Virus record (IMG/VR): IMGVR_UViG_3300044984_003074
Reading direction: 5' to 3' (one strand)
Origin: a virus
Taxonomy: Duplodnaviria > Heunggongvirae > Uroviricota > Caudoviricetes
Length of the DNA: 18,024 nucleotides
Shown here: positions 1 through 18,024 of the stretch, piece after piece
How positions within the stretch are numbered: position 1 is the first letter of the stretch
How the letters are laid out: every line of letters begins with the position of its first letter
Made by a program: the position numbers and the translations under genes
The notes under the pieces: generated by a model
What the model was told of the DNA's origin: nothing
Database searches by the model: none
What the model saw: only the letters and a program-made list of their open reading frames with translations

Positions 1-677
1 CTCAAGGGACTAAATTCAAAGGAATTAAACTTGGTAACTTTGGTTTAATGTCATCTTTCTCCACTTATTTTGGACATACTATGTCAACTATTGAAGGTGG
101 TGTAATTACAACCAATGATGACGAAATTTATAACACTTTATTACAACTTAGAAGTCATGGATGGGATAGAGATTTGTCATCTGAAAAACAACAAGAATTA
201 AGAAAAGAATGGGATGTAACGGATTTCTCTGCGTTATACACATTTTACATACCAGGGTTTAATGTAAGAAGTACCGATTTACAAGCTCAAATTGGAGTTA
301 AACAATTAGATAAAGTTGATGGAATGATTAATAATCGATATGAAAATTTCCTATATTACAAATCTAAACTAGAAGGTAAGACATGGTTTCCTAAAACTTT
401 TGACGATAGTTATACATCAAATTTTGCAATCCCTGTTATCACCAAAACTTTAATAGATAAAGAAAATTTAATTAAAGAATTAACGGACAATAATATTTCA
501 TGTAGACCATTAATTTCAGGGTCTATGGGGACTCAACCATTTTACAAAAAATTATATGGTGAGAATAAATTACCTAATTGTTCAATTATAGATGAAAGAG
601 GAGTTTATGTTCCAAATCATGATAAAATGACAAAAGAAGATATTGATAGAATTTGTGATATCTTACTAAAATATTAA
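1..677 (+). CDS. 5'-truncated PLP-dependent DegT/DnrJ-fold enzyme, ColD-like GDP-4-keto-6-deoxy-mannose 3-dehydratase
   Basis: The frame is open from nt 3 (QGTKFKGIKLGNFGLM...), so the real start lies upstream of the window. SFSTYFGHTMSTIEGG...LRSHGWDRDL...PGFNVR...CRPLISG are DegT-family motifs. His (nt 75-77) sits where aminotransferases have the PLP lysine, as in ColD. Confidence 0.85.
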   Translation, partial: QGTKFKGIKLGNFGLMSSFSTYFGHTMSTIEGGVITTNDDEIYNTLLQLRSHGWDRDLSSEKQQELRKEWDVTDFSALYTFYIPGFNVRSTDLQAQIGVKQLDKVDGMINNRYENFLYYKSKLEGKTWFPKTFDDSYTSNFAIPVITKTLIDKENLIKELTDNNISCRPLISGSMGTQPFYKKLYGENKLPNCSIIDERGVYVPNHDKMTKEDIDRICDILLKY

Positions 678-682
678 TATAG

Positions 683-1471
683 ATGTTGAAGTACTTTAAA
701 CCCGCAAGAGGTAATGGTGTTCATCAAAGAGGTTATTTTTCATACATAACCGAAGCTGTTGTCCATATACATAATGTATTGTTAAATTATCCAGATGAAA
801 AATTAAAAATATATTATGACTTATCAAATATATTTGGTTATGGTAGTCAAAACATTTATGATGTTTGTTTTGTCCAAGACAAAGATGATTATTTAAATAA
901 TGTTAATGAATATTCTAACATTGAGTTAGTTAATTATATTTCACCATTAAATGCGTATGAAAGTGAAACATTTGTACCAAAAGACTTAAAAATGTGTGAA
1001 TCAATTATTAAAGATAACTTTATATTAAATGATGAGATGAAACAATTATTTTCGTCAAGACATCCCCAAATTGATTTTACAAAAACTATAGGATTTCATA
1101 GAAGAGCCACTGATATGTCAAGTGTACACTATGTTTCAACAATAGATTTATCAGAAATATTTAAGACATTAGAAAAAGAAGAGTTTGAAAATGTGTTTTT
1201 AATGTGTGATAATCTTAATGATTTAAATGAATTTAAAAAAAGATACGGTAATAAACTAATAACTTTTGATGAATTTACTTCATCAAAGACTGAAGATAAT
1301 CCATTTTTTAAATTAAAAAATGATGAGGAGTCAATTAAACAACACATTCAAGAAATTGTTTTTGGTGCGTATACTTTAGGCATGACAAAAAAATTATTTT
1401 GTACAAAGTCAAATTTATCAACATTCTCAATATTTTCAAACTCAAAATTAAACTACACAAGATTAAATTAA
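683..1471 (+). CDS. NodZ/GT23-like (fucosyltransferase-type, GT-B) glycosyltransferase
   Basis: IGFHRRATD followed by VFLMCD resembles the GxHxRxTD and [IV]YLA[TS]D donor-binding motifs of GDP-fucose transferases. It lies between two GDP-sugar enzymes. Confidence 0.6.
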   Translation: MLKYFKPARGNGVHQRGYFSYITEAVVHIHNVLLNYPDEKLKIYYDLSNIFGYGSQNIYDVCFVQDKDDYLNNVNEYSNIELVNYISPLNAYESETFVPKDLKMCESIIKDNFILNDEMKQLFSSRHPQIDFTKTIGFHRRATDMSSVHYVSTIDLSEIFKTLEKEEFENVFLMCDNLNDLNEFKKRYGNKLITFDEFTSSKTEDNPFFKLKNDEESIKQHIQEIVFGAYTLGMTKKLFCTKSNLSTFSIFSNSKLNYTRLN

Positions 1472-1472
1472 T

Positions 1473-2453
1473 ATGTCAAAAAAAATTGCACTTATAACAG
1501 GAATAAATGGTCAAGATGGTTCTTATTTAGCAGAATTTTTACTTGAAAAAGGATATGAAGTACACGGGACTTTAAAAAGAAATTCAGTAGCAGAAAACCA
1601 AACTGCAAGATTGGATAACATATTTAACCAAATTAACCTACACTACTCGGATTTAACTGATTTATCTTCATTAATTTCTGTAATTCAAAAAACAAATCCT
1701 GATGAAATTTATAATTTGGCAGCACAATCCCATGTTAGGATTTCGTTTGACCAACCAATATACACAGCCAATGTCACAGGTATTGGAACTCTTAATTTAT
1801 TAGAAGCAGTTAAATTAATTAAACCGTCTATTAAAATATACCAAGCATCTTCTTCAGAAATGTTTGGAAACTCAATTGACGAAGATGGGTTCCAAAGAGA
1901 ATCCACCCCATTAAATCCTGTATCACCTTATGGGTGTGCCAAAGTGTTTAGTTATAATATTGGGAGAAACTATAGAAACTCGTATGGTATGTTTATTTCC
2001 AACGGTATTTTATTTAATCACGAATCTCCAAGACGAGGAACAAACTTTGTTACAAATAAAGTTTGTAAAGAAGCGGTTAAGATTAAATTAGGATTATCAA
2101 ATGAATTAAAATTAGGTAATTTAGAAGCAACTAGAGATTGGGGCCACGCTAAAGATTATGTAAAAGCAATGTGGATGATATTACAACAAGACAAACCAGA
2201 TGATTATGTATGTTCGACAGGGATTTCACATTCAGTAGAAGATTTATGTGAGTATACTTTTTCAAAGTTAGGGTTAAATTATAAAGACTATGTTACAGTT
2301 GATGAAAAATTCTTAAGACCTGAGGAACTTCGTGATTTAAAGGGAGACTCATCAAAATTAAATTTGGTAACAGGATGGTCACCTGAATACACATTTGAGG
2401 CAATGTTAGATGAAATGATTGAACATTGGATAAACTTTTACACAAAAAATTAA
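1473..2453 (+). CDS. gmd: GDP-mannose 4,6-dehydratase
   Basis: ALITGINGQDGSYLAEFLLEKGYEVHG, YNLAAQSHVRISF, YQASSSEMFG, SPYGCAK, NGILFNHESPRRG, LGNLEATRDWGHAKDYV: full-length canonical Gmd motifs. Confidence 0.97.
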   Translation: MSKKIALITGINGQDGSYLAEFLLEKGYEVHGTLKRNSVAENQTARLDNIFNQINLHYSDLTDLSSLISVIQKTNPDEIYNLAAQSHVRISFDQPIYTANVTGIGTLNLLEAVKLIKPSIKIYQASSSEMFGNSIDEDGFQRESTPLNPVSPYGCAKVFSYNIGRNYRNSYGMFISNGILFNHESPRRGTNFVTNKVCKEAVKIKLGLSNELKLGNLEATRDWGHAKDYVKAMWMILQQDKPDDYVCSTGISHSVEDLCEYTFSKLGLNYKDYVTVDEKFLRPEELRDLKGDSSKLNLVTGWSPEYTFEAMLDEMIEHWINFYTKN

Positions 2454-2456
2454 ATT

Positions 2457-2840
2457 ATGGTAACAATACCTGTAAGTGTTGGAGAGTTGATTGATAAATT
2501 ATCTATTCTCCATGTAAAAAAAACAAAGATTTTAAATGAAGAAAAATTATCATTCATTAATAATGAATTTGAACTAATTTATAATATGTCATCAATTTAT
2601 TTAGATGATGAAGAAATTTTAAAATTATACCGTGAACTAAACGAAGTTAATTTAAATTTATGGGAAATTGAGGATGAGTTAAGAACAATTGAATCAACAA
2701 AAAATTTTGATTCCCATTTTATTGAATTAGCAAGAAAAGTATACTACACTAATGATGAAAGGTTTTCGTTAAAAAATAAAATTAACGATATAACCAATTC
2801 AGAAGTTAGAGAACAAAAAGATTATATTGAATACAAATAA
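2457..2840 (+). CDS. DUF6165-like small helical protein
   Basis: N-terminal IPVSVGELIDKLSILHVK and LWEIEDELR...FIELARKVYYTNDERF match my recollection of this glycosyltransferase-associated family. Confidence 0.75.
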   Translation: MVTIPVSVGELIDKLSILHVKKTKILNEEKLSFINNEFELIYNMSSIYLDDEEILKLYRELNEVNLNLWEIEDELRTIESTKNFDSHFIELARKVYYTNDERFSLKNKINDITNSEVREQKDYIEYK

Positions 2841-2858
2841 ACAATTAAAATAATTTAA

Positions 2859-3599
2859 ATGGCGACATACAGCAAATCAAAGAACACTAAACCAACACCT
2901 ACACCTGAAACAACTAACAAACCTATCAATAAAAAAGATTTAATTTGTTCAATTGTCCCTAAAAAGACAAAACAAAAATTTTTATCAGAAAGTCAAAAAA
3001 CATATTATGATAAGTTATCTACAAATCAAATTACAATATGTTCAGGACCTGCGGGAGTTGGTAAAAGTTACATAGCAATGAAAGCGGCTGTGGACTTATT
3101 AATTGACCCAACAACTCCATATGAAAAAATTATTATTGTAAGACCGGCAGTAGAAGCTGAAGAAAAATTAGGTAGTTTACCTGGTGGGGTTGAGGAAAAG
3201 TTAGACCCTTATATTTTTCCCTCATATTATCTTTTAAATAAAATTATTGGTAAAGACATAAGAGAAAAACTAAAAGATATTGAAGCGATTGAAGTTTTTG
3301 CGTTAGCTTATATGAGAGGAATGAATATTGATAACTCAATTTTAATTTTTGAAGAAGCTCAAAATTCAACTCCAAGTCAAATGAAATTATTATTAACCCG
3401 AATTGGTTTTAACTCCAAGTTTTTTATATCAGGAGATTTAGAACAATTTGATAGACATAAAGATAAAACCCAAACAGGATTGTGGGATGCTCTTAAAAAA
3501 TTCCAAGACATGGAAGATGTTGGGGTATTTGAATTTAAACCAGAAGATATTGTGAGAAATCCATTAATTTCTAAAATCTTAAAAAGATACGAAGAATGA
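2859..3599 (+). CDS. phoH: PhoH-family ATPase
   Basis: Walker A GPAGVGKS, IIIVRPAVEAEEKLGSLPG, LAYMRG, EEAQN, GDLEQFD, DIVRNPLI. Confidence 0.95.
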   Translation: MATYSKSKNTKPTPTPETTNKPINKKDLICSIVPKKTKQKFLSESQKTYYDKLSTNQITICSGPAGVGKSYIAMKAAVDLLIDPTTPYEKIIIVRPAVEAEEKLGSLPGGVEEKLDPYIFPSYYLLNKIIGKDIREKLKDIEAIEVFALAYMRGMNIDNSILIFEEAQNSTPSQMKLLLTRIGFNSKFFISGDLEQFDRHKDKTQTGLWDALKKFQDMEDVGVFEFKPEDIVRNPLISKILKRYEE

Positions 3600-4192
3600 G
3601 AATTGGTATTGAGGTAAATGGTGTACTTAGAGATACTTTAAAAAAAATTCAACAAGAGTATGAAAAATGGTATATTGATAATCCATTTAAAGAAGAAAAC
3701 GAAGAAGAGTTTGAGTATAAAGTAATATCTGACTTAACTTCTTTAGATATACTTTCTCATCTTAATTTTAAAGATGAAGATGATTTGTATAATTTTTTAT
3801 ACAAAGAACATACCATGGAAATTTTTGGACATTCAGGTTCCGTAGAAAATTCAAGTATGTCAGACTTAAATGATTTTTATTTAGATATGAGAGACAATCA
3901 CGAAATAGTAATTGTTTCAGATGAAATTGGAAAATCTAAACCAGCGACTTTATTTTTCATTTCTAAATTTGGATGTTTGATTGAATCTGTTAGATTTTAT
4001 AGTGAAAGTACAATTAATTTACTTTGGAATTCAGTAGACATTTTACTTACAGCAAATCCTAAACTATTATTAAACCATCCTGAGGATAAAATCATTGTTA
4101 AATATGACACATCTTATAACTCAGATATAAAAACAGAGTATTCAATATCAAAGATTAAAGAACTCAAATTAAAAATAGAAGAAATAATATGA
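3596..4192 (+). CDS. HAD-fold, 5'(3')-nucleotidase-like protein with degenerate catalytic motifs
   Basis: RIGIEVNGVLRD corresponds to HAD motif I (hhhDhDGVL) with E/N in place of D/D. It has IVS (motif II) and DILLTANP where DILIDD is expected. ATGA overlap with phoH. Confidence 0.6.
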   Translation: MRIGIEVNGVLRDTLKKIQQEYEKWYIDNPFKEENEEEFEYKVISDLTSLDILSHLNFKDEDDLYNFLYKEHTMEIFGHSGSVENSSMSDLNDFYLDMRDNHEIVIVSDEIGKSKPATLFFISKFGCLIESVRFYSESTINLLWNSVDILLTANPKLLLNHPEDKIIVKYDTSYNSDIKTEYSISKIKELKLKIEEII

Positions 4193-4470
4193 TAAGTGTA
4201 TTAGGAGAAAATTATTACATTGATTTAGATGTAATTGAACAATACCTTGACATGTCAGACAAGGAAATACCTGAAACTTTATCAGGAGAGACAGAAATAA
4301 AAATTAACATTATCAAATTTGATATGGTAAAAATGTTATTAGAAACAATCTTAACTGAACAAGACACTGTTGATGAAAAATTAGGGATGAAAGGTAGTTC
4401 AAACACAAGTATTCCCTTTAGAATAGCATTTAATAGTCTTTTAAATAAAAAATTAATCAATCATTATTAA
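4189..4470 (+). CDS. hypothetical protein
   Basis: 93-aa ORF translationally coupled (ATGA overlap) inside the operon; no motif recognised. Confidence 0.75.
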   Translation: MISVLGENYYIDLDVIEQYLDMSDKEIPETLSGETEIKINIIKFDMVKMLLETILTEQDTVDEKLGMKGSSNTSIPFRIAFNSLLNKKLINHY

Positions 4471-4474
4471 TAAT

Positions 4475-5527
4475 ATGGAAAACACAATTCAAGAAAAAGT
4501 ATTAAACTCCATCCAAGTATTAAGAGATAAACAAGCAAGGATATATTTTTTAGTACAAGATACTAAAGGTAACGCAAAGGCTTCTATCAGACTTATTTAC
4601 CAAATGGCAAAAACATTAAAAGACAACGGATTTAATCCAATCATATTACACGAAAAGGCAGAATACGCTGGTGTCGCTGCTTGGTTAAATGAGGAATATA
4701 TGTCTTTACCTCATAGAGCTATTGAGGGACAAAATTTAGAAATCTCACCTGAAGATTTTTTAATCATACCTGAAATTTTTGGGTACGTAATGGACCAAGT
4801 AAAACAATTACCTTGTGCAAAAATTGTATTTAATCAACAATACGCACATATGTTAGAAACATTACAACCAGGACAATCATGGTCTCAATTTGGGTTTATG
4901 AAATGTTTAACAACATCAAACAAACAAAAAGAATATGCGGAAAGAATTATGAGACAAGCGTCTTTTGATATTATTGAGCCGTATATCACAGAATTTTTTA
5001 AACCAAAATCAACACCCCCAATGCCAATTATTGGTATTCACACTAAAGAACAAAGTGATTCTATAAACATCATTAAAGCTTTTTATTTAAAATTCCCTCA
5101 ATATAGATGGTTCACATTTAGAGATTTAAGAGGTCTTTCTGAAAAAGAATTTGCCAATTCTTTAAGTGATTGTTTTGTTAGTGTTTGGATTGACGACCAC
5201 AGTGGGTTTGGTACATTCCCATTAGAATCTATGAAATGTAATGTACCTGTGATTGGTAAAGTACCAAATCTATCTCCTGATTGGATGACAGAAAACAATG
5301 GTATTTGGATTACAGACCAAACATTATTTCCAGACATTATCGCAGATTATGTACAAAATTGGCTTGAGGATAATATAAATCCTGAAGTTTTTGATGAAAT
5401 GAAAAAAACTGTGGAACCATTTTCAGATAAACATAAATTTGAATCATCAGTTGTAACCTTATTTAGTGGTTACTTAAACAATAGAGCGGATTCATTCGAA
5501 CAACAAATTTCAAAAACAGAAGAATAA
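4475..5527 (+). CDS. GT-B (GT4-like) glycosyltransferase
   Basis: C-terminal SGFGTFPLESMKCNVPVIG resembles the GT4 EGFGLxxLEAMAxGxPVI motif; N-terminal RIYFLVQD...IYQMAKTLKDNGFNPIILH. Confidence 0.7.
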   Translation: MENTIQEKVLNSIQVLRDKQARIYFLVQDTKGNAKASIRLIYQMAKTLKDNGFNPIILHEKAEYAGVAAWLNEEYMSLPHRAIEGQNLEISPEDFLIIPEIFGYVMDQVKQLPCAKIVFNQQYAHMLETLQPGQSWSQFGFMKCLTTSNKQKEYAERIMRQASFDIIEPYITEFFKPKSTPPMPIIGIHTKEQSDSINIIKAFYLKFPQYRWFTFRDLRGLSEKEFANSLSDCFVSVWIDDHSGFGTFPLESMKCNVPVIGKVPNLSPDWMTENNGIWITDQTLFPDIIADYVQNWLEDNINPEVFDEMKKTVEPFSDKHKFESSVVTLFSGYLNNRADSFEQQISKTEE

Positions 5528-5528
5528 T

Positions 5529-6335
5529 ATGAGCAATAAATTATCACTTTCGGTTATACTACCAATTAAATCCTCAAAAGCAAAAAACTTTGAGGACTAT
5601 TTTGAAAAGGCAATATCATCTCTTAAAACTCAACAAGTTGGTTTTGAAGAGTTAATCATTGTACACACTAATGAAGAATCATTAGTTAATCATCTTAACA
5701 ATTATGATTTTGGCGATTTACAAGTATCTAAATTACCATGGGGAGAAGCTCCTAACTATTGTGAACAAGTGAATTATGGAATAAAAAACGCAAAGAGTAC
5801 TTGGGTATCCCTTTTTGAATTTGATGACGAATATTCGTCTATTTGGTTTAAAAATGTTAAAACATATTCTGAAGCTTACCCTGAAACACAAATGTTTTTA
5901 CCTGTAGTGGTTGAAACTGATGAAAAAGGTCTTTTCGCAGGATTTACTAATGAGGCAACATTCGCTGCAAACTTTACACAAGAGATGGGATTTTTAACTA
6001 ATGAAACATTACAAGATTATCAAAATTTCCAAACAGCGGGTTCCGTATTTAAAAAAGAAATTATTGAAGACTTTGGAGGGTTTAAATCCTCAATGAAACT
6101 TACATTTATTTATGAGTTTTTATTAAGACTTACTTACAATTCAGTATCTATTATGACAATACCAAAACTTGGATACAAACATGTTAATTTAAGAGAAGGT
6201 TCAATTTTTTGGAATTACAAAAATGGTGATGAAAGAATGGTTGAAGATGAAGTTAAATTTTGGATTCAAACCGCAAAAAAAGAATATTTTTTCACTGACG
6301 ATAGAGTCATAAAATATCAATCTGAAAATGTATAA
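5529..6335 (+). CDS. GT-A (GT2-like) glycosyltransferase
   Basis: LSVILPI, AISSLKTQ, ELIIVH, VNYGIKNAKSTWVSLFEFDD (DxD region), YEFLLRL. Confidence 0.8.
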   Translation: MSNKLSLSVILPIKSSKAKNFEDYFEKAISSLKTQQVGFEELIIVHTNEESLVNHLNNYDFGDLQVSKLPWGEAPNYCEQVNYGIKNAKSTWVSLFEFDDEYSSIWFKNVKTYSEAYPETQMFLPVVVETDEKGLFAGFTNEATFAANFTQEMGFLTNETLQDYQNFQTAGSVFKKEIIEDFGGFKSSMKLTFIYEFLLRLTYNSVSIMTIPKLGYKHVNLREGSIFWNYKNGDERMVEDEVKFWIQTAKKEYFFTDDRVIKYQSENV

Positions 6336-7082
6336 ATGCAAGAAACTCTATCTGCAACGACAGAAGATGTTTTATCTAAAAAAAGGGGGAGAAAGCCAGT
6401 CAATTTAAATTATTTTGATGTAAGAGAAGAAGAAGCGGTTAGAAATTTTTTAATTGCTGAAAGTTCACAAGATAAAAATAAAATTTATAACGAATTTTTA
6501 AGAGGCCCTCTCGATAAGATGATTTCATCCATCATACGACGATATAAATTATATCGTAAAGATATGGACTTTACTGAAATTCACACCGACACTCATTCTT
6601 TTTTAATGACAAAGGTTGATAAATTTAAACCAGATAAGAATAAAAAGGCCTATTCTTATTTTGGTACTATTTGTAAAAATTATTTGATGGGTCAAATAAT
6701 TAAAGACCAAAAAGAAACAAATAGAAAAATTTCATACGAAGATATTTCGGCTAGTTTAGAAGAAAGAGCTGATATGAGTTATAGAATTGATGATGATATT
6801 GTGGAAACTCAAGTCGTCATCAATGAATATTTAAAAGAATTAAAAGATTTTATTGAATTAGAAAATTTAAATGAGAATGAACGAAAATTAGGATATGCCC
6901 TTGTTGATTTATTTGATAATTATGAAACAATATTTTCAGGAGCGGATAATAACAAATTTAATAAAAATGTTATTCTACTTTCTTTAAGAGAAATGACAAA
7001 TTTAAGCACTAAAGAAATTAGAAGTTCTATTAAAAGATTTAAAAAATTGTACATGATTATTCAAATTAAAATGAAAAACTAA
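6336..7082 (+). CDS. phage sigma-70-like factor (candidate late sigma)
   Basis: MISSIIRRY...KVDKFKPDKNKKAYSYFGTICKNYL resembles sigma region 2 (KFDPxKGxKFSTYA). C-terminal LREMTNLSTKEIRSSIKR is HTH-like. It directly precedes the putative structural block. Confidence 0.65.
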   Translation: MQETLSATTEDVLSKKRGRKPVNLNYFDVREEEAVRNFLIAESSQDKNKIYNEFLRGPLDKMISSIIRRYKLYRKDMDFTEIHTDTHSFLMTKVDKFKPDKNKKAYSYFGTICKNYLMGQIIKDQKETNRKISYEDISASLEERADMSYRIDDDIVETQVVINEYLKELKDFIELENLNENERKLGYALVDLFDNYETIFSGADNNKFNKNVILLSLREMTNLSTKEIRSSIKRFKKLYMIIQIKMKN

Positions 7083-11291: not shown

Positions 11292-11299
11292 TATTTATA
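11291..11299 (+). promoter_or_regulatory. ATATTTATA motif, candidate late promoter
   Basis: TATTTATA at 11292-11299, 12 nt upstream of ATG 11312. Confidence 0.5.
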
Positions 11300-13203: not shown

Positions 13204-13668
13204 ATGGCAAATAGAATAGTAAAATTAACAGAATCAGATTTAACAAGATTAGTTAAAAAAGTTTTATCTGAAGAAAGAGGAGTAAATTATATGTTCTTTA
13301 GTAATTTAGTCCAAATAAAAAGACAATGTGAGATTATGTTAGAGATGGACCATGACCAAATTGATGAGATAATTCAAAATGGACATGATTGGGCTGATGA
13401 CCATATAACCGAAGCAAAAACTAATATAGACCAAGTATTTGATTTTTTAATGAATGAAGAAAAAGGAGGGATGAATAACGAATATGATATGGTAGAAGAA
13501 GGTCGTAAAAAAACAGGTACTAAATTATGTGCTCGTGGATTAGCCGCAGCAAAATCAAAATATAAAGTTTACCCTTCAGCTTATTCTAACGGTTTTGCCG
13601 TTCAAGTTTGTAAAGGAACAATTGCAGGACTTGACGGGAAAAAACATTGTTCAGGTGCATATTGTTAA
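13204..13668 (+). CDS. modular protein: LTESDL leader, acidic domain, basic Cys-containing YPSAY domain (DUF5872 N-half-like)
   Basis: MANRIVKLTESDLTRLVKKVLSE leader; HDWADDH acidic segment; C-terminal LCARGLAAAKSKYKVYPSAYSNGFAVQVCKG. Confidence 0.75.
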   Translation: MANRIVKLTESDLTRLVKKVLSEERGVNYMFFSNLVQIKRQCEIMLEMDHDQIDEIIQNGHDWADDHITEAKTNIDQVFDFLMNEEKGGMNNEYDMVEEGRKKTGTKLCARGLAAAKSKYKVYPSAYSNGFAVQVCKGTIAGLDGKKHCSGAYC

Positions 13669-13674
13669 TATGAT

Positions 13675-13704
13675 AAAAAAAGAGAGTTAATTACTCTTTT
13701 TTTT
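13675..13704 (+). terminator. intrinsic terminator ending the long plus-strand block
   Basis: AAAAAAAGAGAGT-TAATT-ACTC followed by a T run to 13704, just after the stop at 13668. The core stem is weak. Confidence 0.6.
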
Positions 13705-13715
13705 ATTTAAAATAG

Positions 13716-13745
13716 TTTGTAATATAAAAAAAACAATTATCTTTG
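13716..13745 (+). promoter_or_regulatory. Bacteroidota housekeeping-sigma promoter (-33 TTTG / -7 TATCTTTG)
   Basis: TTTG at 13716-13719 and TAnnTTTG at 13738-13745 (18-nt spacer), upstream of ATG 13772. Confidence 0.7.
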
Positions 13746-13771
13746 TTGAATAAAAAAATAAGGATAAACTA

Positions 13772-14197
13772 ATGAGAAAATTTTATAGCAGACTTTTTAA
13801 AAGATTAAGATTAAAAATTTATATTCTTTTTAAACAATATTTTTTAAATCGTAAAAAAAACTATAATCGTAATGAAATTAAATCTTCAGCAATTTTTAGA
13901 AAATTAATTAACCATCCTGATTCCACGTTTTTAATTGCACCATTATCCGAAAAAAGATATATTAAAAACGAACCATTAGGAATATTCATTTTATTAAATG
14001 GTTTAAGATTAAACATTACAAACCACATTTATAATTATGATATTGATATTTGCCAAAATTTATTTGATAAACTCTCTTCAATATTTGATGAAAAAGTTGA
14101 AAAAAATAGAATGGAATTTGAGATAGAGATGCAAGGACAAATTCAACACTCTTTATCAAAAATATTAGAAAAAATTACTAACGAAAGTTCTCTCTGA
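13772..14197 (+). CDS. hypothetical protein (basic N-terminus)
   Basis: 141-aa ORF with its own host-type promoter; its 3' end overlaps the convergent gene by 20 nt. Confidence 0.7.
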   Translation: MRKFYSRLFKRLRLKIYILFKQYFLNRKKNYNRNEIKSSAIFRKLINHPDSTFLIAPLSEKRYIKNEPLGIFILLNGLRLNITNHIYNYDIDICQNLFDKLSSIFDEKVEKNRMEFEIEMQGQIQHSLSKILEKITNESSL

Positions 14198-14879
14198 GAA
14201 CTTTTTTTATTAACTCTTGTAACTGTTCGTTTTTTGGTTTATAAGAAGTCATTTTAGGCTTATTACCCGTACCTGATTTAGAGTGTGTTTTTTCAGCCTT
14301 TCTTTTTTGTTGACATGCAGACCTTTTTTGTGAGTCGGTCATTTTACTGGCAACACCGGCAGCACGACATTTAGGATATCCCTTATCACTAGCCTCAGGT
14401 CTACCACACGGAGGATGTCCCCCACCTTCTTTTTTACGACAAATATTAACCCATGGTCCTTTTGGCTGTGAACTTCCTTTTGGTTTCTTTTTAGTTCCAA
14501 ACCAAACCGCTAAATCTTCTTTTAAAAAAGATTCTTTAAGTGGACCAACATCTCGTTTAATTATTTCTTCAGGACTTTCGACATCTGATATACTACTACC
14601 GTCTTCATCATTTTGTCCTGTATAAAAACTTTTTAGATATGTATCAATACGAGATAATTTTTCAGTATTAGCTTCTATTTTTTTTCTTTCTTCAGGACTT
14701 TCTAAATAATCACCATCAGCTTCTTCATAAGCCAATTCCGCATTAGTGTATTTGTAAACAGGGGTATTGAATGGCGCCAATTGGTCTGGTTTCCATTGTT
14801 GTGGTGCAAGAACAATTGGAACTTTATAATGTCCTGATGAACCTGACCCTGTCGCTTCCCTTATTGATTTTTTATTCAT
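14178..14879 (-). CDS. modular protein with basic Cys-containing WF/WVNI/CGR/YPKCR domain (DUF5872 C-half-like)
   Basis: EDLAVWFG...WVNICRKKEGGGHPPCGRPEASDKGYPKCR; ends in QLQELIKKVLRENFR. Confidence 0.75.
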   Translation of the reverse strand: MNKKSIREATGSGSSGHYKVPIVLAPQQWKPDQLAPFNTPVYKYTNAELAYEEADGDYLESPEERKKIEANTEKLSRIDTYLKSFYTGQNDEDGSSISDVESPEEIIKRDVGPLKESFLKEDLAVWFGTKKKPKGSSQPKGPWVNICRKKEGGGHPPCGRPEASDKGYPKCRAAGVASKMTDSQKRSACQQKRKAEKTHSKSGTGNKPKMTSYKPKNEQLQELIKKVLRENFR

Positions 14880-14894
14880 ATATTTAACTTAACC

Positions 14895-14910
14895 ATAAAT
14901 ATCCATTTAT
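14895..14910. promoter_or_regulatory. back-to-back ATTTAT motifs in a divergent 41-nt gap
   Basis: ATAAAT-ATCC-ATTTAT inverted repeat. On the minus strand it reads GATATTTAT, 15 nt before ATG 14879; on the plus strand ATTTAT lies 10 nt before ATG 14921. Confidence 0.45.
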
Positions 14911-14920
14911 TATTAAAATT

Positions 14921-15148
14921 ATGACAGAAAAAGAACCTATGGGGTTATTATTTGATTCTATCGCATATTATACTCCCGAAGACATTGATAAATTAACTGA
15001 TAATTTAACAATTGAACAATCATTTTACATCCTTGCTCAGGCAATAGAATATGCTCATAAAGCTAGATTGTACGATTTAAGGGAGACTGAGCTAGTTTCC
15101 AAATCAATTAGGATGGTTAATACTCATTTAACCAAATCTGAAGAATAA
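14921..15148 (+). CDS. small hypothetical protein
   Basis: 75-aa ORF followed immediately by a terminator. Confidence 0.7.
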   Translation: MTEKEPMGLLFDSIAYYTPEDIDKLTDNLTIEQSFYILAQAIEYAHKARLYDLRETELVSKSIRMVNTHLTKSEE

Positions 15149-15176
15149 AAAAAGGGTCTCACGGGACCCTTTTTTT
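15147..15176. terminator. bidirectional intrinsic terminator
   Basis: A7-GGGTCT-CACG-GGACCC-T7 between convergent genes ending at 15148 (+) and 15179 (-). Confidence 0.85.
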
Positions 15177-15178
15177 AT

Positions 15179-15985
15179 TTATAATTTATTTCCACAAGAC
15201 GGACAAAATTTAAAATTTGTTTTTGTCTTGGTACCACATTCCGTACAATATTGTCTAATGTCTTCTGTGGTTTTATTCTTAGTACTTAATGGTTGTAATT
15301 TAAAACTAATTTCATGTGATGTGTGATAATTAAAATTCTCATATGAATTAGTAAAATTTTGTTTGGATTTATCACCTTTCTCAACTCTGCCGGTTTCAAG
15401 AGATTTTTTACTTCTAATGTTTGGTCCCGCAAATGTATTGGTTATAACGCCAGCAGTATTAGTTGAAGTATTAAACGCTGTTGATGAAATACCTGAAGTT
15501 AAATTACTTGTATTTGTAGAATAATTGTGAATGTTTGTTGTTGTTACACCCATAGGTTGGAATGAACCCGTACCTGAGTGATGTAAATTTGTGTAAGTAA
15601 GTCCATTTGTATAATAGAAATTATTTCTAATAGGTTCTTGTTCATCATAAAACTCAATTCTAACATCCCCATTCAAATCGATTGCCGATATGTTTTCAGG
15701 AGTATTTTTAATTTTATAGGTACTGAACTCAAACTTGTTGTTAGTGTCCAAGAATCGTTCTAAAAACATCCTCTGACCTGGTCTTAATACAACCCCACTT
15801 GTTGAGATGTATTGACCATTCAATTTGATTTTTACAAGTACCGATTTTTGTTTTGGATTATGGATTTCGAATTCGAAATTATCTTTGTCATTTAAGAAGA
15901 TAATGTGGCCGTTATAGACCTTAAGACGCGACTTTTTCTTTGTAATGTGTGCAGTCGGTTTGCCCACCGTAGTTGAGTAATTCAT
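15179..15985 (-). CDS. beta-rich domain protein with T/N/S-rich linker and C-terminal double Zn ribbon
   Basis: C-terminal CTECG...FCPSCG (two CxxC pairs); N-terminal FEFEIHNP...KIKLNG...LRPGQRMFLERF; conserved-looking ETGRVEKG after the low-complexity linker. Confidence 0.8.
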   Translation of the reverse strand: MNYSTTVGKPTAHITKKKSRLKVYNGHIIFLNDKDNFEFEIHNPKQKSVLVKIKLNGQYISTSGVVLRPGQRMFLERFLDTNNKFEFSTYKIKNTPENISAIDLNGDVRIEFYDEQEPIRNNFYYTNGLTYTNLHHSGTGSFQPMGVTTTNIHNYSTNTSNLTSGISSTAFNTSTNTAGVITNTFAGPNIRSKKSLETGRVEKGDKSKQNFTNSYENFNYHTSHEISFKLQPLSTKNKTTEDIRQYCTECGTKTKTNFKFCPSCGNKL

Positions 15986-15999
15986 TTTTTAATTTTATT

Positions 16000-16070
16000 A
16001 TAGTTAATGACTATGTTACCAATACCTTCGTGTCCGTGAATACTCAACAACCTTTAAGGTTGGGGACTGA
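16000..16070 (-). other. candidate structured 5' leader RNA
   Basis: 16011-16070 is 26/60 G+C, against 2/25 and 3/40 in the flanks. It has nested pairings GTCC/GGAC and CAACCT/AGGTTG plus an ATAGT/ACTAT hairpin. Confidence 0.4.
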
Positions 16071-16087
16071 TAAACTAAAATCTAATA

Positions 16088-16095
16088 ATAAATAT
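16088..16095 (-). promoter_or_regulatory. ATATTTAT motif, candidate late promoter for the Zn-ribbon gene
   Basis: ATAAATAT on the plus strand, about 100 nt upstream of ATG 15985. Confidence 0.4.
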
Positions 16096-16107
16096 ATTCA
16101 AAATATT

Positions 16108-16136
16108 TTTGGAATCAATAAAAATGTGTATATTTG
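16108..16136 (+). promoter_or_regulatory. Bacteroidota housekeeping-sigma promoter (-33 TTTG / -7 TATATTTG)
   Basis: TTTG at 16108-16111 and TAnnTTTG at 16129-16136 (17-nt spacer). It overlaps the track's ATG at 16134, which favours a start at 16161. Confidence 0.7.
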
Positions 16137-16160
16137 TACAATAAAAAAATAAAACAGTCT

Positions 16161-16379
16161 ATGAAAAACTTAATCGTAATTTTAATCACAGTAATATTTT
16201 TAACTTCATGTGTAAGTCAAAAAACTATTGAATTAGCAAACGGTAAGATGGTTACCGAAAAAAAATTCAAAAGAATGTGCCATAAAGCTTATAAAAAAAG
16301 TTTTGGTAAAATGTCAAAAGAAGACAAAAAATTGTTTGAAGATGTAAAGATTTCTGTAGATACCTTATCAGGTAACTAA
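16161..16379 (+). CDS. small basic lipoprotein (72 aa)
   Basis: MKNLIVILITVIFLTSC is a signal peptide II with lipobox LTSC; the mature part is Lys-rich. Start reassigned from 16134 to 16161. Confidence 0.8.
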   Translation: MKNLIVILITVIFLTSCVSQKTIELANGKMVTEKKFKRMCHKAYKKSFGKMSKEDKKLFEDVKISVDTLSGN

Positions 16380-16382
16380 TAC

Positions 16383-17810
16383 TTACTTAACAAGTTTAAT
16401 ATAGTCACCCTCTTTATAGGTTACTTTATTTATAAGTGCACTTTGTAATACTTTATACACATCTTGAGTTGGTATAGTTATAGACCTTTTATCCGTAACT
16501 GGTGTTATTGTTTTACTAGCCATTAATGATTTACCAAGAGATTCAGGTGTTTCATTTATAGGGCATTTAATAAACCTGATAAGTGGTTTTTTAACTAATT
16601 TAACCCTATCTCCAAGACTAACACCATGATTATTACCAAATCTATTATGAATTACCAAATAACTACCATCTTTTTCAGGTGTAGATTTTATAAATTTATT
16701 ATCGGATAAAAATTTAACTCTTTCCACCATATCTGTTGTGACCCCAATAGGGAATTCTAATACTTTACCTGTAGGTTTAACATTAATCGGGGTTTTTTCA
16801 TCACCTGTATTTTCGGTTTCAGTCCCTTTTTTCTTCAAATTACCACAGTTGTCTAAAACTAAAATAATTTTATCAGCCGTGTCTCCAAATTCTGTTAATG
16901 ATGGAGAACATCCCCAATAAATAATAGAATTTCCTTTACTGATTTTAACTTCAGGAGAACTTGAATGGCATTTATTTCCTGACAAACATTGTAAACTAAT
17001 TATAATATCTTTACTTTTGTCACCTATAATTTGTTTTGCTTGTTCATCTGTTACAACAATTGGTCCGCTGGTCTTACTCTTTCCATCATATTCATTATTT
17101 AAATTAGCAATACCAATTTCAACACCATTTAATTTAATCGCAAATTCAGCTTCATTACATCTATGGTCACCTCTACATGGAAACCTTGTGTTTTCAACTG
17201 AGTTATACATAACCTCTACAGTTAAACCAACAACACATTCTGCAGGAGATTTTAATTTTAATTCTACTTTAACAAATCTTTCAGGTTTATATTTTTCGTC
17301 GTTAGGATTATCAATTCCTTTAGTGTATTTCTCTGAACCAATAATAACTTCAGGTGCCTCAAATATTGGTTTATTTGAAATAATACCTTGACTTACTAAG
17401 TTATCAAAATATTTGGTCAAATATTCTTTCATTGTTGTTGCTCTTTTTTCTGAAAGATATCCAGGGTCAACTTTTGGGCGTGCAGGGTTTTCATTATCAG
17501 TATTAGTTACCTGAGATTCTCCGGCAATAATTTTTACATAAACAACTCTACCTTTTTTTGATGTTAAAAATTTTGCAGCATTTGCTAATTGACCATCTAA
17601 TTCTTCTTTACCTTCAGGTGATAAAGATTTCCATTTTCCATTTGAGAAAAAACTTTTTCCTTCGAGGGTTATTTCATCGGGATTTGTTGAAGATTGAACT
17701 GCAGAAGTGTTTTGTTCTTTTATTAAATATAAATTTTTTGTTGCACTCTCATGCATCATCAATATTCTTTTAACTTCTTTCGTATCTATATTCCAATTTT
17801 GTTTAATCAT
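16383..17810 (-). CDS. multidomain protein: leader, OmpA-C-like domain, Cys-rich domain, two degenerate C-terminal repeats
   Basis: FSNG...VKIIAGES...LSEKRATTMKEYL...ERFVKVEL follows the OmpA-C pattern (GhtD...LSxxRAxxVxxyL...NRRVei). No signal peptide or TM segment is visible. Confidence 0.65.
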   Translation of the reverse strand: MIKQNWNIDTKEVKRILMMHESATKNLYLIKEQNTSAVQSSTNPDEITLEGKSFFSNGKWKSLSPEGKEELDGQLANAAKFLTSKKGRVVYVKIIAGESQVTNTDNENPARPKVDPGYLSEKRATTMKEYLTKYFDNLVSQGIISNKPIFEAPEVIIGSEKYTKGIDNPNDEKYKPERFVKVELKLKSPAECVVGLTVEVMYNSVENTRFPCRGDHRCNEAEFAIKLNGVEIGIANLNNEYDGKSKTSGPIVVTDEQAKQIIGDKSKDIIISLQCLSGNKCHSSSPEVKISKGNSIIYWGCSPSLTEFGDTADKIILVLDNCGNLKKKGTETENTGDEKTPINVKPTGKVLEFPIGVTTDMVERVKFLSDNKFIKSTPEKDGSYLVIHNRFGNNHGVSLGDRVKLVKKPLIRFIKCPINETPESLGKSLMASKTITPVTDKRSITIPTQDVYKVLQSALINKVTYKEGDYIKLVK

Positions 17811-17823
17811 TTTACTATTTTAT

Positions 17824-17831
17824 TATAAATA
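17824..17831 (-). promoter_or_regulatory. TATTTATA motif, candidate late promoter
   Basis: GTATTTATA on the minus strand, 13 nt upstream of ATG 17810 and just after the capsid-gene terminator. Confidence 0.5.
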
Positions 17832-17840
17832 CTCTATAAT

Positions 17841-17870
17841 AAAAAAAAGGGTTCCATTAGGAACCCTTTT
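17841..17870 (-). terminator. intrinsic terminator of the major capsid gene
   Basis: Perfect 7-bp stem GGGTTCC/GGAACCC with a 4-nt loop and a T8 tail on the minus strand, 20 nt after the stop. Confidence 0.9.
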
Positions 17871-17890: not shown

Positions 17891-18024
17891 TTATCTCAAC
17901 TCTCTTAAGTCAAATGTTCTTACACCATCAACTGTAATTCTACCGTAGAAACGGTTGTTTACCATTTTCTTAGCGTATCTAGTCATGATACCTTTGATTG
18001 GTGTGAAGTTGAATGGGTTATACA
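17891..18024 (-). CDS. major capsid protein (T4 gp23-like), C-terminal 43 aa; missed by the ORF track
   Basis: Hand translation of 18022->17891 gives YNPFNFTPIKGIMTRYAKKMVNNRFYGRITVDGVRTFDLRELR*. P-x-x-G-x-x-TRY is the gp23-family C-terminal signature. Confidence 0.88.
   Translation of the reverse strand, partial: YNPFNFTPIKGIMTRYAKKMVNNRFYGRITVDGVRTFDLRELR

What the first reader, a model, noticed from the sequence alone, without database searches (positions are those of the whole stretch)
13204..17810. Shared peptide tag and protease-site grammar suggest a capsid-cargo (internal protein) targeting system
Seen in sequence: the N-terminal leader of 13204..13668 (DLTRLVKKVLSE) and the C-terminal tail of the otherwise unrelated 14178..14879 protein (QLQELIKKVLRE, nt 14190-14225) share L-x-x-L-[VI]-K-K-V-L-x-E, an amphipathic helix. 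In these two and in 16383..17810, apparent domain boundaries fall at [IL]-x-E motifs: LTE and LSE|E; SIRE|A and PLKE-SFLKE|D and VLRE|N; LIKE|Q. Established: the T4 prohead protease gp21 cleaves after Glu in [IL]-x-E, and T4 internal proteins carry a short cleavable capsid-targeting sequence. The window's MCP is gp23-like. Inference: these are small polyprotein-like cargoes loaded into the prohead through a portable helix that works at either terminus, then cut into separate domains at maturation.
Basis: partly seen in the sequence, partly recalled or inferred. Interest (0 to 1): 0.8.

Follow-up and report, generated by a model that had tools for sequence, protein, structure and literature searches.

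The report
Portable leader peptide on phage proteins
Two neighbouring genes of an uncultured T4-like giant freshwater phage share a short helical peptide that proves to be a phage-only tag carried by thousands of unrelated small proteins; it is most likely a "load into the capsid, then cut here" label like the one phage T4 uses, but no experiment has shown this.

Summary
The shared helix lies exactly where stated and is far beyond chance. It is the back half of a 22-residue module, consensus MKKIIRLTESDLxRLVKRVIxE.

- **Spread:** the module occurs 7-14 times in each complete relative (~280-330 kb T4-like phages) and on 6,889 protein clusters in public metagenomes. It is essentially absent from 185,579 cellular genomes.
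- **Position:** most copies are N-terminal. Some are internal joints or C-terminal.
- **Cut-site pattern:** both almost invariant Glu residues sit in L/I-x-E.
- **Head machinery:** the genome has an apparently intact gp21-type protease. Its own site and the capsid protein's site align with the T4 cut sites.
- **Expression:** tagged genes share a promoter-like box with the structural genes.
- **Cargo:** tagged cargo bodies are slightly poor in L/I-x-E and rich in L/I-x-D.

A T4-like capsid-targeting and cleavage tag is therefore the best reading (about 0.5). Packaging and cleavage remain untested.

- The wider "domain boundary grammar" has little statistical support.
- The 475-aa protein carries a different leader, specific to its own family.
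- Only the last 43 codons of the capsid gene lie in the window.

This scan has met the same leader before on other DNA.

The parts
13204..13668 (+). Gene for the 154-aa mosaic protein: leader, helical domain, linker, small Cys-containing basic domain
   Evidence: ORF. 522 relatives in IMG/VR, the best 80 at 66-77% identity over the full length. The C-terminal domain matches phrog_27331 and stand-alone genes of Pelagibacter podophages. The middle domain recurs without the leader in huge phage LR756502.1.
13204..13272 (+). Leader module, residues 1-23, with two candidate protease sites: L8-T9-E10|S11 and L21-S22-E23|E24
   Evidence: Profile A1 scores it 50 bits. T9, E10, L13 and E23 are invariant in paralogues. 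A skeleton-only regex gives Glu in 84/85 and 83/85 cases at the two P1 positions, with a variable P2. Predicted helix 10-25 (low confidence).
14178..14879 (-). Gene for the 233-aa protein: short N-terminal I-x-E|A peptide, acidic region, DUF5872-like Cys domain, C-terminal helix
   Evidence: ORF. phrog_23735 at residues 142-203. Homologues are stand-alone neighbours of the other domain in pelagiphages. In the orthologue alignment I-x-E|A, [LV]-K-E|D and L-x-E near the end are 95-100% conserved. The Atlas lead to DUF5872 is weak.
14190..14225 (-). C-terminal copy of the helix half of the module, residues 219-230, followed by only three residues
   Evidence: In L058, L060, L062, L063 and L017 this position holds a complete leader followed by a further 120-135-residue domain.
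14856..14879 (-). Eight-residue N-terminal peptide of the 233-aa protein, ending I-R-E|A
   Evidence: P3 hydrophobic 100%, P1 Glu 100%, P1' Ala 42/44 in orthologues. This is the same glutamyl-alanyl form as the aligned capsid-protein site.
16383..17810 (-). Gene for the 475-aa protein just downstream of the capsid gene
   Evidence: ORF. No Pfam or PHROG family and no match in cultured phages. Bodies of the 21 family members (20 orthologues) are mostly 30-38% identical (one at 59%).
17715..17810 (-). Family-specific N-terminal leader of the 475-aa protein, residues 1-32, ending I-K-E|Q. It is not the shared helix.
   Evidence: The N-terminus is strongly conserved up to [LIV]-x-E-Q and the sequence then diverges. 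It was found only in this family and its local duplicates.
17891..18022 (-). Last 43 codons plus stop of the gp23-like major capsid protein gene
   Evidence: PF07068 at 206 bits in the genome. Translation.
17825..17870 (-). Terminator-like hairpin after the capsid gene (17841-17870) and a TATTTAT box (17825-17831) ahead of the 475-aa gene
   Evidence: Sequence read. The same box precedes the portal, protease, scaffold-position, sheath-like and tube-like genes.
14895..14901 (-). TATTTAT box 22 nt upstream of the 233-aa gene
11292..11298 (+). TATTTAT box ahead of the 499-aa gene, which heads the co-directional run 499 aa, 126 aa, 154 aa
   Evidence: Gene order.
13772..14197 (+). Conserved 141-aa ORF, convergent with the 233-aa gene and overlapping its end by 20 nt. 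Not part of the tag system.
   Evidence: A syntenic neighbour in 27 of 80 loci.

Best explanation
**What it is.** The shared helix is the back half of a 22-residue, phage-only peptide module, consensus MKKIIRLTESDLxRLVKRVIxE. T4-like jumbo phages of this clade place it on many unrelated small late proteins.

**Proposed mechanism (inferred).** The amphipathic helix binds the prohead core, so tagged proteins are built into the prohead. The gp21-type protease then cuts after the two almost invariant Glu residues (L-T-E| and [IL]-x-E|). This frees the cargo, as with the T4 capsid targeting sequence.

**The window's proteins.**
- The 154-aa protein carries the full N-terminal module.
- The 233-aa protein carries only the helix half, at its C-terminus. 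It also has a separate eight-residue N-terminal I-x-E|A peptide.
- The 475-aa protein has a different leader of its own, ending [LIV]-x-E-Q.

**Evolution.** Because the module is repeated, recombination between copies fuses and splits cargo genes at the tag. This gives polyprotein-like forms with internal tags.

**Shown:** the module, its distribution and positions, its conservation pattern, the protease and capsid genes, and the fusions.
**Inferred:** binding to the core, encapsidation and cleavage.
For: 1. **Beyond chance and selected as protein.** In identical-residue codon pairs of the paralogous leaders, 40% differ synonymously, and the upstream DNA is unrelated.
2. **Many unrelated carriers.** At least 13 carriers in complete relative G001, 10 profile matches in G002, and 7-14 in G004-G007. 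6,889 clusters at E<=0.001 among 1.84 billion representatives, nearly all at residues 1-25. 116 of 123 sampled carriers have no Pfam domain.
3. **Phage-only.** Three short MAG contigs in 185,579 species genomes.
4. **Linked to T4-type heads.**
   - S77 protease in G000, G004, G006 and G007. The miss in G005 is explained by contig truncation.
   - T4-like terminase, portal and capsid protein.
   - The protease is 32% identical to T4 gp21, keeps the NHP and SSRG motifs, and has L-I-E|T aligned to T4's own site.
   - The capsid site aligned to T4 L-T-E|A is I-N-E|A.
5. **Logo-like conservation.** With only the hydrophobic and basic skeleton required, P1 is Glu in 84/85 and 83/85 cases, Asp in 1 and 2, and P2 of the second site is free. 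The gp21 motif is L/I-x-E, and Asp at the cut position blocks processing of the T4 tag (PMC9026906).
6. **Cargo bodies avoid the motif.** L/I-x-E observed/expected is 0.93 and 0.87, against 1.17 and 1.07 in untagged phage proteins. L/I-x-D is 1.14 and 1.26.
7. **Expression.** Tagged genes lie behind the TATTTAT box shared with the head and tail genes.
8. **Joints.** 31 of 150 top carriers have two copies, with 35 internal and 4 C-terminal copies. L044 against L007/L059, and L057 against L025, are fused exactly at the leader.
9. **Precedent.** T4 Alt has propeptides at both ends (PMC9026906).
Against: - No virion, prohead or cleavage data exist for any carrier, and none of the carriers is from a cultured phage.
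- The module has no sequence similarity to the T4 decapeptide retrieved, and it is twice as long.
- The cultured T4-like Flavobacterium phage immuto, annotated with a gp21-type prohead protease, lacks the module, as does Microcystis phage Mel-JY01.
- Some cargo looks envelope-directed, which is unlike T4 internal proteins. Examples are OmpA, PG_binding_1 and hydrophobic membrane-like segments.
- The C-terminal copy in the 233-aa protein lacks the first site, so a cut would not detach it.
- The window's own 154-aa and 233-aa bodies keep conserved internal L/I-x-E sites rather than avoiding them.
- The avoidance signal is modest, about z -2 in each data set. The two sets may share families.
- Glu two residues after a hydrophobic residue is also what a plain amphipathic helix would give.
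Confidence: 0.5

Rival explanations
1. The module is a docking or bundling helix that is not cleaved and does not load capsids. It would plug many late proteins into one shared partner or into each other. Candidates are a tail, baseplate or neck structure, or a hetero-oligomeric helical bundle.
For: - The hydrophobic face at 3-4 spacing is typical of a helix that packs on other helices.
- Copies work at either end or inside proteins, and two copies per chain are common.
- The C-terminal copy of the 233-aa family is conserved although a cut would not remove it.
- The 154-aa gene lies in a run with large unannotated, probably structural genes.
Against: - It does not explain why both P1 positions are Glu and almost never Asp, Gln or Lys, while P2 is free.
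- It does not explain the relative lack of L/I-x-E in cargo bodies.
- It does not explain why in-frame fusion of unrelated domains at the tag is tolerated so often.
- No partner gene recurs next to tagged genes.
Confidence: 0.24
2. The module is an envelope-directed amphipathic helix for late proteins that act on the cell wall or membrane, in lysis, superinfection exclusion or envelope remodelling.
For: - Recognisable cargo is biased to peptidoglycan binding. OmpA and PG_binding_1 are two of the few Pfam hits.
- G001 has a 120-aa carrier made of leader plus a PG-binding-like domain (by eye).
- A 593-aa carrier has hydrophobic segments and a C-terminal PG-binding-like domain (by eye).
- Several two-copy proteins have membrane-like stretches.
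Against: - The leader is highly charged and is not a signal peptide.
- Most cargo is soluble, acidic or Cys-rich, with no envelope feature.
- Internal and C-terminal copies fit a membrane anchor poorly.
- PG-binding and membrane-active proteins are also what ejection proteins of other phages look like (my own knowledge of T7 and P22).
Confidence: 0.12
3. The module is a recognition sequence for one phage enzyme or chaperone that modifies, folds or degrades its carriers. Alternatively it would be a degron for the phage's own Clp system.
For: This genome encodes its own ClpC/ClpP and tmRNA (earlier notes; not checked here).
Against: - Radical-SAM genes are absent from three complete leader-bearing genomes, and in G001 they lie far from the tagged genes.
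- No gene family recurs beside tagged genes. The largest untagged neighbour families are in at most 27 of 80 loci and are syntenic neighbours of single orthologues.
- An internal degron or an internal RiPP leader is unusual.
Confidence: 0.08
4. The similarity is compositional chance, or a DNA-level element (promoter, ribosome-binding or recombination cassette) rather than a peptide.
For: The genome is AT-rich, so Lys, Ile, Leu and Glu are common. M-K-K starts are frequent.
Against: - Shuffles never reach the observed counts.
- Reversed proteins score at most 10.5 bits against 30-34.
- Synonymous differences are frequent and the upstream DNA is unrelated.
- Copies exist at C-termini and inside proteins.
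Confidence: 0.01

Closest known systems
[quoted passage not shown]
   Same: - A short N-terminal peptide is the only thing shared by otherwise unrelated small proteins of a T4-type phage.
- It ends in L/I-x-E, the protease motif.
- The phage has gp20, gp21 and gp23 homologues in the T4 order.
- The cargo set varies between related phages.
   Different: - 22 residues with two candidate sites, against 10 residues with one.
- No sequence similarity to the T4 decapeptide.
- 7-14 carriers per genome and thousands of families, against a handful.
- Copies also occur inside proteins and at C-termini.
- Nothing has been shown experimentally.
T4 Alt (and perhaps gp21 itself), with propeptides at both termini (PMC9026906)
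   Same: A precedent for a C-terminal piece processed by gp21, and so for a tag that need not be N-terminal.
   Different: In the 233-aa protein the only L/I-x-E in or after the helix lies three residues from the end. The helix would therefore stay on the mature protein.
Inner-body and ejection proteins of phiKZ, 201phi2-1 and SPN3US, cut by a gp21-like protease at S/A-x-E, with several sites per propeptide (PMC9026906, PMC5694885, PMC10052503)
   Same: A giant phage, many head-internal proteins, a Glu-specific protease of the same family, and redundant sites in the removed piece.
   Different: Those propeptides are not one portable consensus peptide. The capsid lineage and the cleavage motif also differ.
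Phage P1 DarB N-terminal packaging signal (PMC9024508)
   Same: An N-terminal stretch of about 30 residues is enough to send a reporter into a myovirus capsid.
   Different: One protein and one signal. It is not a repeated module and has no shared consensus with this one.
Encapsulin cargo-loading peptides (my own knowledge, not checked here)
   Same: A short terminal peptide, at either end of the cargo, that binds the inside of an HK97-fold shell.
   Different: There is no protease step, the systems are cellular rather than phage, and the sequence differs.

Membership tests
T4-type capsid targeting sequence / internal protein system | The same genome encodes a gp21-family (Peptidase_S77) prohead protease | tested here: met
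   PF03420 at 81 bits, G000:48910-49626. 32% identity to T4 gp21 with the NHP and SSRG motifs kept.
T4-type capsid targeting sequence / internal protein system | T4-type head module: gp17 terminase, gp20 portal, gp23 capsid protein, scaffold between protease and capsid gene | tested here: met
   PF03237, PF07230 and PF07068 all match. The scaffold is assigned by position only: a 542-aa protein with no family hit, L/I-x-E 15 against 8.6 expected, and six L-D-E-E repeats.
T4-type capsid targeting sequence / internal protein system | A short leader is the only similarity between otherwise unrelated proteins of one phage | tested here: met
T4-type capsid targeting sequence / internal protein system | The leader ends in the protease motif L/I-x-E | tested here: met
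   Invariant Glu with L/I at P3 at both sites.
T4-type capsid targeting sequence / internal protein system | Sequence relationship to the T4 CTS decapeptide | tested here: not met
   The T4 decapeptide was retrieved at two places in NC_000866. Read by eye (no alignment run), it shares only the M-K start, two hydrophobic positions and the final Glu with the first nine residues of the module.
T4-type capsid targeting sequence / internal protein system | The leader is N-terminal and is removed from the mature protein | tested here: inconclusive
   142 of 181 copies are N-terminal, 35 internal and 4 C-terminal. Removal could not be tested. The C-terminal copy in the window cannot be detached by an L/I-x-E cut.
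T4-type capsid targeting sequence / internal protein system | The leader is needed and sufficient for encapsidation; cargo is present in virions and ejected | not testable with these tools
   No cultured carrier and no proteome. Cultured relatives lack the leader.
Radical-SAM/SPASM-recognised leader (RiPP-like tag) | A radical-SAM enzyme co-occurs with tagged genes | tested here: not met
   PF04055 is absent from G000, G002, G004 and G007. The three hits in G001 lie far from the tagged genes.
DUF5872 (PF19197), for the Cys domain of the 233-aa protein | Match to the Pfam model | tested here: not met
   No Pfam hit at E<=0.1. The only lead is an Atlas cluster in which 14% of members carry PF19197.
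OmpA-like peptidoglycan-binding domain, for the 475-aa protein | Match to PF00691 | tested here: not met
   No Pfam hit at E<=0.1. The resemblance of residues about 55-135 is by eye only. One other tagged protein (from the set) does match OmpA.

The most novel reading that the evidence does not exclude
The module is both an address and a self-excising joint. On this reading, T4-like jumbo phages build changeable cargo sets by recombining genes at the leader-coding sequence. They load single proteins or multi-domain chains into the prohead through the helix. The head protease then cuts at both Glu sites, releasing every domain. The cargo would include peptidoglycan-binding and membrane-active ejection proteins, which are not known for T4-type phages.
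Probability: 0.3. Interest if true: 0.8.

Novelty: new variant of a known kind. Interest (0 to 1): 0.62.

Why it matters
If the tag does load capsids, it gives a sequence-only way to list the injected protein arsenal of a large, uncultured group of freshwater (and, by earlier notes, other) giant phages. That arsenal would span thousands of dark-matter protein families. It would also show that the T4 internal-protein principle has been scaled up into a plug-in system with cleavable joints, and it would offer a second natural peptide for loading foreign proteins into phage heads.

Papers held in the searched library do not mention this peptide. This scan, however, has noted the same or sister leaders on other DNA several times. 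Those notes are not independent evidence.

Tried and rejected
- **Structure prediction.** AlphaFold2 with orthologue alignments gave mean pLDDT 58.7 for the 154-aa protein and 40.1 for the 233-aa protein. That is too poor for fold searches, so none was run. Only the helical state of the tag is read from the models.
- **The search for homologous proteins** on residues 1-40 returned only orthologues and said nothing about spread.
- **Cultured phages.** tblastn of a 95-aa carrier against cultured phages found nothing even at E 10. The 499-aa and 475-aa proteins also have no match there.
The genomic context of the metagenomic carriers could therefore not be read. The listing of cluster members showed only unnamed metagenome proteins.
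- **Protease N-terminus.** The start of the phage's own protease looks like the start of the leader, but the leader profile does not score it. This is kept as a lead only.
- **Proteome-wide test.** L/I-x-E is about 1.4-fold enriched in the first 30 residues of G001 proteins, but L/I-x-K is enriched too, so this is weak.
- **Rejected explanations.** A radical-SAM partner, a fixed neighbouring partner gene, a DNA-level cassette and chance.

Full report
**Where the window lies.** The window is the reverse strand of G000:53340-71363. G000 is a 129.6-kb IMG/VR contig, 32% G+C, rated 43% complete. Complete relatives are 280-330 kb. Earlier notes of this scan call it a T4-like freshwater phage, probably of Bacteroidota. 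I checked only the T4-like part.

- The genome has a T4-type large terminase, a gp20 portal, a Peptidase_S77 protease (81 bits) and a gp23 capsid protein (206 bits), in the T4 order.
- Only the last 43 codons of the capsid gene are inside the window.
- The rest of the window holds nucleotide-sugar and glycosyltransferase genes and PhoH. It also holds four large unannotated genes and the three genes of the finding.

**The observation.**
- The strict pattern never arose in 1000 shuffles of the genome's proteins. A loosened pattern was found four times against 0.047 expected.
- The two further copies in this contig head a 381-aa protein and a 222-aa protein.
- Both window copies are kept in orthologues.

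**What the peptide is.**
- In the complete relative G001 at least 13 small, mutually unrelated proteins begin with the same 22 residues, consensus MKKIIRLTESDLxRLVKRVIxE.
- Other complete relatives carry 7-14 copies.
- A profile of the leader found 6,889 clusters at E<=0.001 among 1.84 billion representatives, and 128 at E<=1e-10. Almost all matches are at residues 1-25.
- Of the 150 best carriers, 31 hold two copies. In all there are 142 N-terminal, 35 internal and 4 C-terminal copies.
- 116 of 123 sampled carriers have no Pfam domain. The few hits include OmpA, PG_binding_1 and a GNAT.
- A pattern scan of one genome for each of 185,579 bacterial and archaeal species gave three hits, all on short MAG contigs.
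- The cultured T4-like phages nearest by capsid protein lack the peptide. These are Flavobacterium phage immuto and Microcystis phage Mel-JY01. Huge phage LR756502.1 lacks it too.
- Conservation is at the protein level. 40% of identical-residue codon pairs differ synonymously among G001 paralogues, and the upstream DNA is unrelated.

**The window's proteins are mosaics.**
- *154-aa protein.* It is leader, then a helical domain, then a linker, then a small Cys-containing basic domain. The helical domain also occurs, without the leader, in LR756502.1.
- *233-aa protein.* It has a second small Cys domain in its middle.
- *A shared history.* The two small domains are separate, adjacent genes without any leader in Pelagibacter podophages HTVC023P, HTVC106P and HTVC027P. 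The two proteins are therefore not functionally unrelated.
- *475-aa protein.* It does not carry the shared helix. Its first 32 residues form a leader found only in its own family. That leader is conserved up to [LIV]-x-E-Q, after which the sequence diverges.

**Protease grammar.**
- *The known motif.* T4 gp21 cuts after Glu in L/I-x-E, and an Asp at the cut position blocks processing of the T4 tag (PMC9026906).
- *The protease itself.* This phage's protease is 32% identical to gp21, with the NHP and SSRG motifs kept. It has L-I-E|T aligned with T4's own proposed site.
- *The capsid protein.* Its site aligned with T4 L-T-E|A reads I-N-E|A.
- *The leader.* I required only the hydrophobic and basic skeleton. 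The residue two after L7 is then Glu in 84 of 85 distinct copies. The residue two after position 20 is Glu in 83 of 85, and Asp accounts for the rest. The residue between position 20 and that Glu is free.
- *The 233-aa family.* An eight-residue N-terminal peptide ending I-x-E|A is fully conserved, as are [LV]-K-E|D and the L-x-E near the end.
- *Raw counts.* They are less impressive:

| Protein | L/I-x-E observed | Expected from composition | P |
|---|---|---|---|
| 154 aa | 4 | 1.4 | 0.036 |
| 233 aa | 5 | 1.9 | 0.03 |
| 475 aa | 5 | 5.6 | not enriched |
| 542 aa, scaffold position | 15 | 8.6 | 0.014 |
| 235 aa, next to the portal | 10 | 5.2 | 0.012 |

  - Cargo bodies have L/I-x-E at 0.93 and 0.87 of the composition expectation in two data sets.
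  - Untagged phage proteins have 1.17 and 1.07.
  - L/I-x-D is raised in the cargo, at 1.14 and 1.26.
  - The effect is in the direction expected for proteins exposed to such a protease. It is modest, about z -2 in each set.

**Joints.**
- L044 has one gene made of an N-domain, the leader and a helical domain. The next gene is leader plus the 154-type body. L007 and L059 have one gene made of that N-domain, the leader and the 154-type body.
- L057 and L025 repeat this with a different N-domain.
- In L058, L060, L062, L063 and L017 the 233-type protein runs through a complete leader into a further domain, where the window's protein simply ends in the helix.
- Genes are thus fused and split at the tag. 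This is what recombination between repeated leader sequences would give. A cleavable joint would make such fusions harmless.

**Expression.** A TATTTAT box lies within 50 nt upstream of 29 of 162 genes in G000. These include the portal, protease, scaffold-position, sheath-like and tube-like genes. They also include the 233-aa, 475-aa, 381-aa and 222-aa genes. The 154-aa gene is third in a run headed by such a box. I read the box as a late-type promoter element, by association only.

**Rivals.**
- Radical-SAM genes are absent from three complete carriers.
- No gene family recurs beside tagged genes.
- A plain docking helix, or an envelope-directed helix, remains possible. Recognisable cargo leans towards peptidoglycan binding and hydrophobic segments.
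- The C-terminal copy in the window could not be cut off.
- No data on particles or cleavage exist.

**Verdict.**
A capsid-loading, protease-cut tag is the best explanation at about even odds.
- The library search found no paper naming this peptide.
- This scan has described the same and sister leaders on other genomes, always with the same untested reading.

Noticed in passing
G001 (L086-L103), e.g. G001:229275-231205, 244643-248566; G000:12809-13774 and 109239-109544: Besides the leader studied here, the complete relative carries at least two other recurrent N-terminal leaders on many small genes. One starts M-K-Y-I-I-T-E-S-R-L (11 or more genes). The other starts M-N-L-Q-E-D-I-x-R-I-K-E-V-M-G (9 or more). 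Both contain an L/I-x-E near their end.
   Followed up: partly
window 17825-17831(-), 14895-14901(-), 11292-11298(+); G000 genome-wide: A TATTTAT box lies 11-42 nt upstream of 29 of 162 genes, mostly head, tail and tagged genes. It is the reverse complement of the core of the T4 late promoter word and may be this clade's late promoter.
   Followed up: partly
G000:50004-51632 and G000:47442-48149 (outside the window): The 542-aa protein in the scaffold position has six tandem eight-residue repeats, each holding L-D-E-E. The 235-aa protein between portal and protease has the highest L/I-x-E density in the genome, 4.3 per 100 residues. Both look like protease-degraded core proteins.
   Followed up: partly
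window 13516-13647(+) and 14289-14516(-); L004:2981-3633; L005:2858-3264: The two small Cys-containing basic domains of the 154-aa and 233-aa proteins are a conserved adjacent gene pair in Pelagibacter podophages. They also occur in other marine phages. Their function is unknown, and they are virus-only by the Atlas.
   Followed up: partly
G000:33773-34441(-) (L200:2774-3442): The 222-aa protein, which starts with a short form of the helix, has an H-E-x-x-H motif. It could be a tagged metallopeptidase. No family hit.
   Followed up: no
G000:48910-49626 (L199:7911-8627): The prohead protease begins M-K-K-L-R-I-L-E|A, which resembles the first nine residues of the leader. It also has a second site, L-I-E|T, aligned with T4 gp21. 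The leader profile does not score it.
   Followed up: partly
window 16383-17810(-), residues about 55-135: By eye this stretch resembles an OmpA-like peptidoglycan-binding domain. One other tagged protein has a significant OmpA match and two or three have PG-binding-like domains, mostly by eye. The window protein itself has no Pfam hit.
   Followed up: partly
window 1-7082: A block of nucleotide-sugar and glycosylation genes next to PhoH: DegT-type aminotransferase, GDP-mannose 4,6-dehydratase, DUF6165 and two glycosyltransferases. It is followed by a 248-aa protein with a weak match to late sigma factor gp55 (phrog_234, E 0.0017).
   Followed up: no
window 15179-15985(-): A 268-aa protein with a C-terminal zinc ribbon (PF13240, 26 bits), conserved in relatives (10 of 80 loci). 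Function unknown.
   Followed up: no
window 13772-14197(+): A conserved 141-aa basic ORF converges on the 233-aa gene and overlaps its last 20 nt. It is present in 27 of 80 related loci.
   Followed up: no
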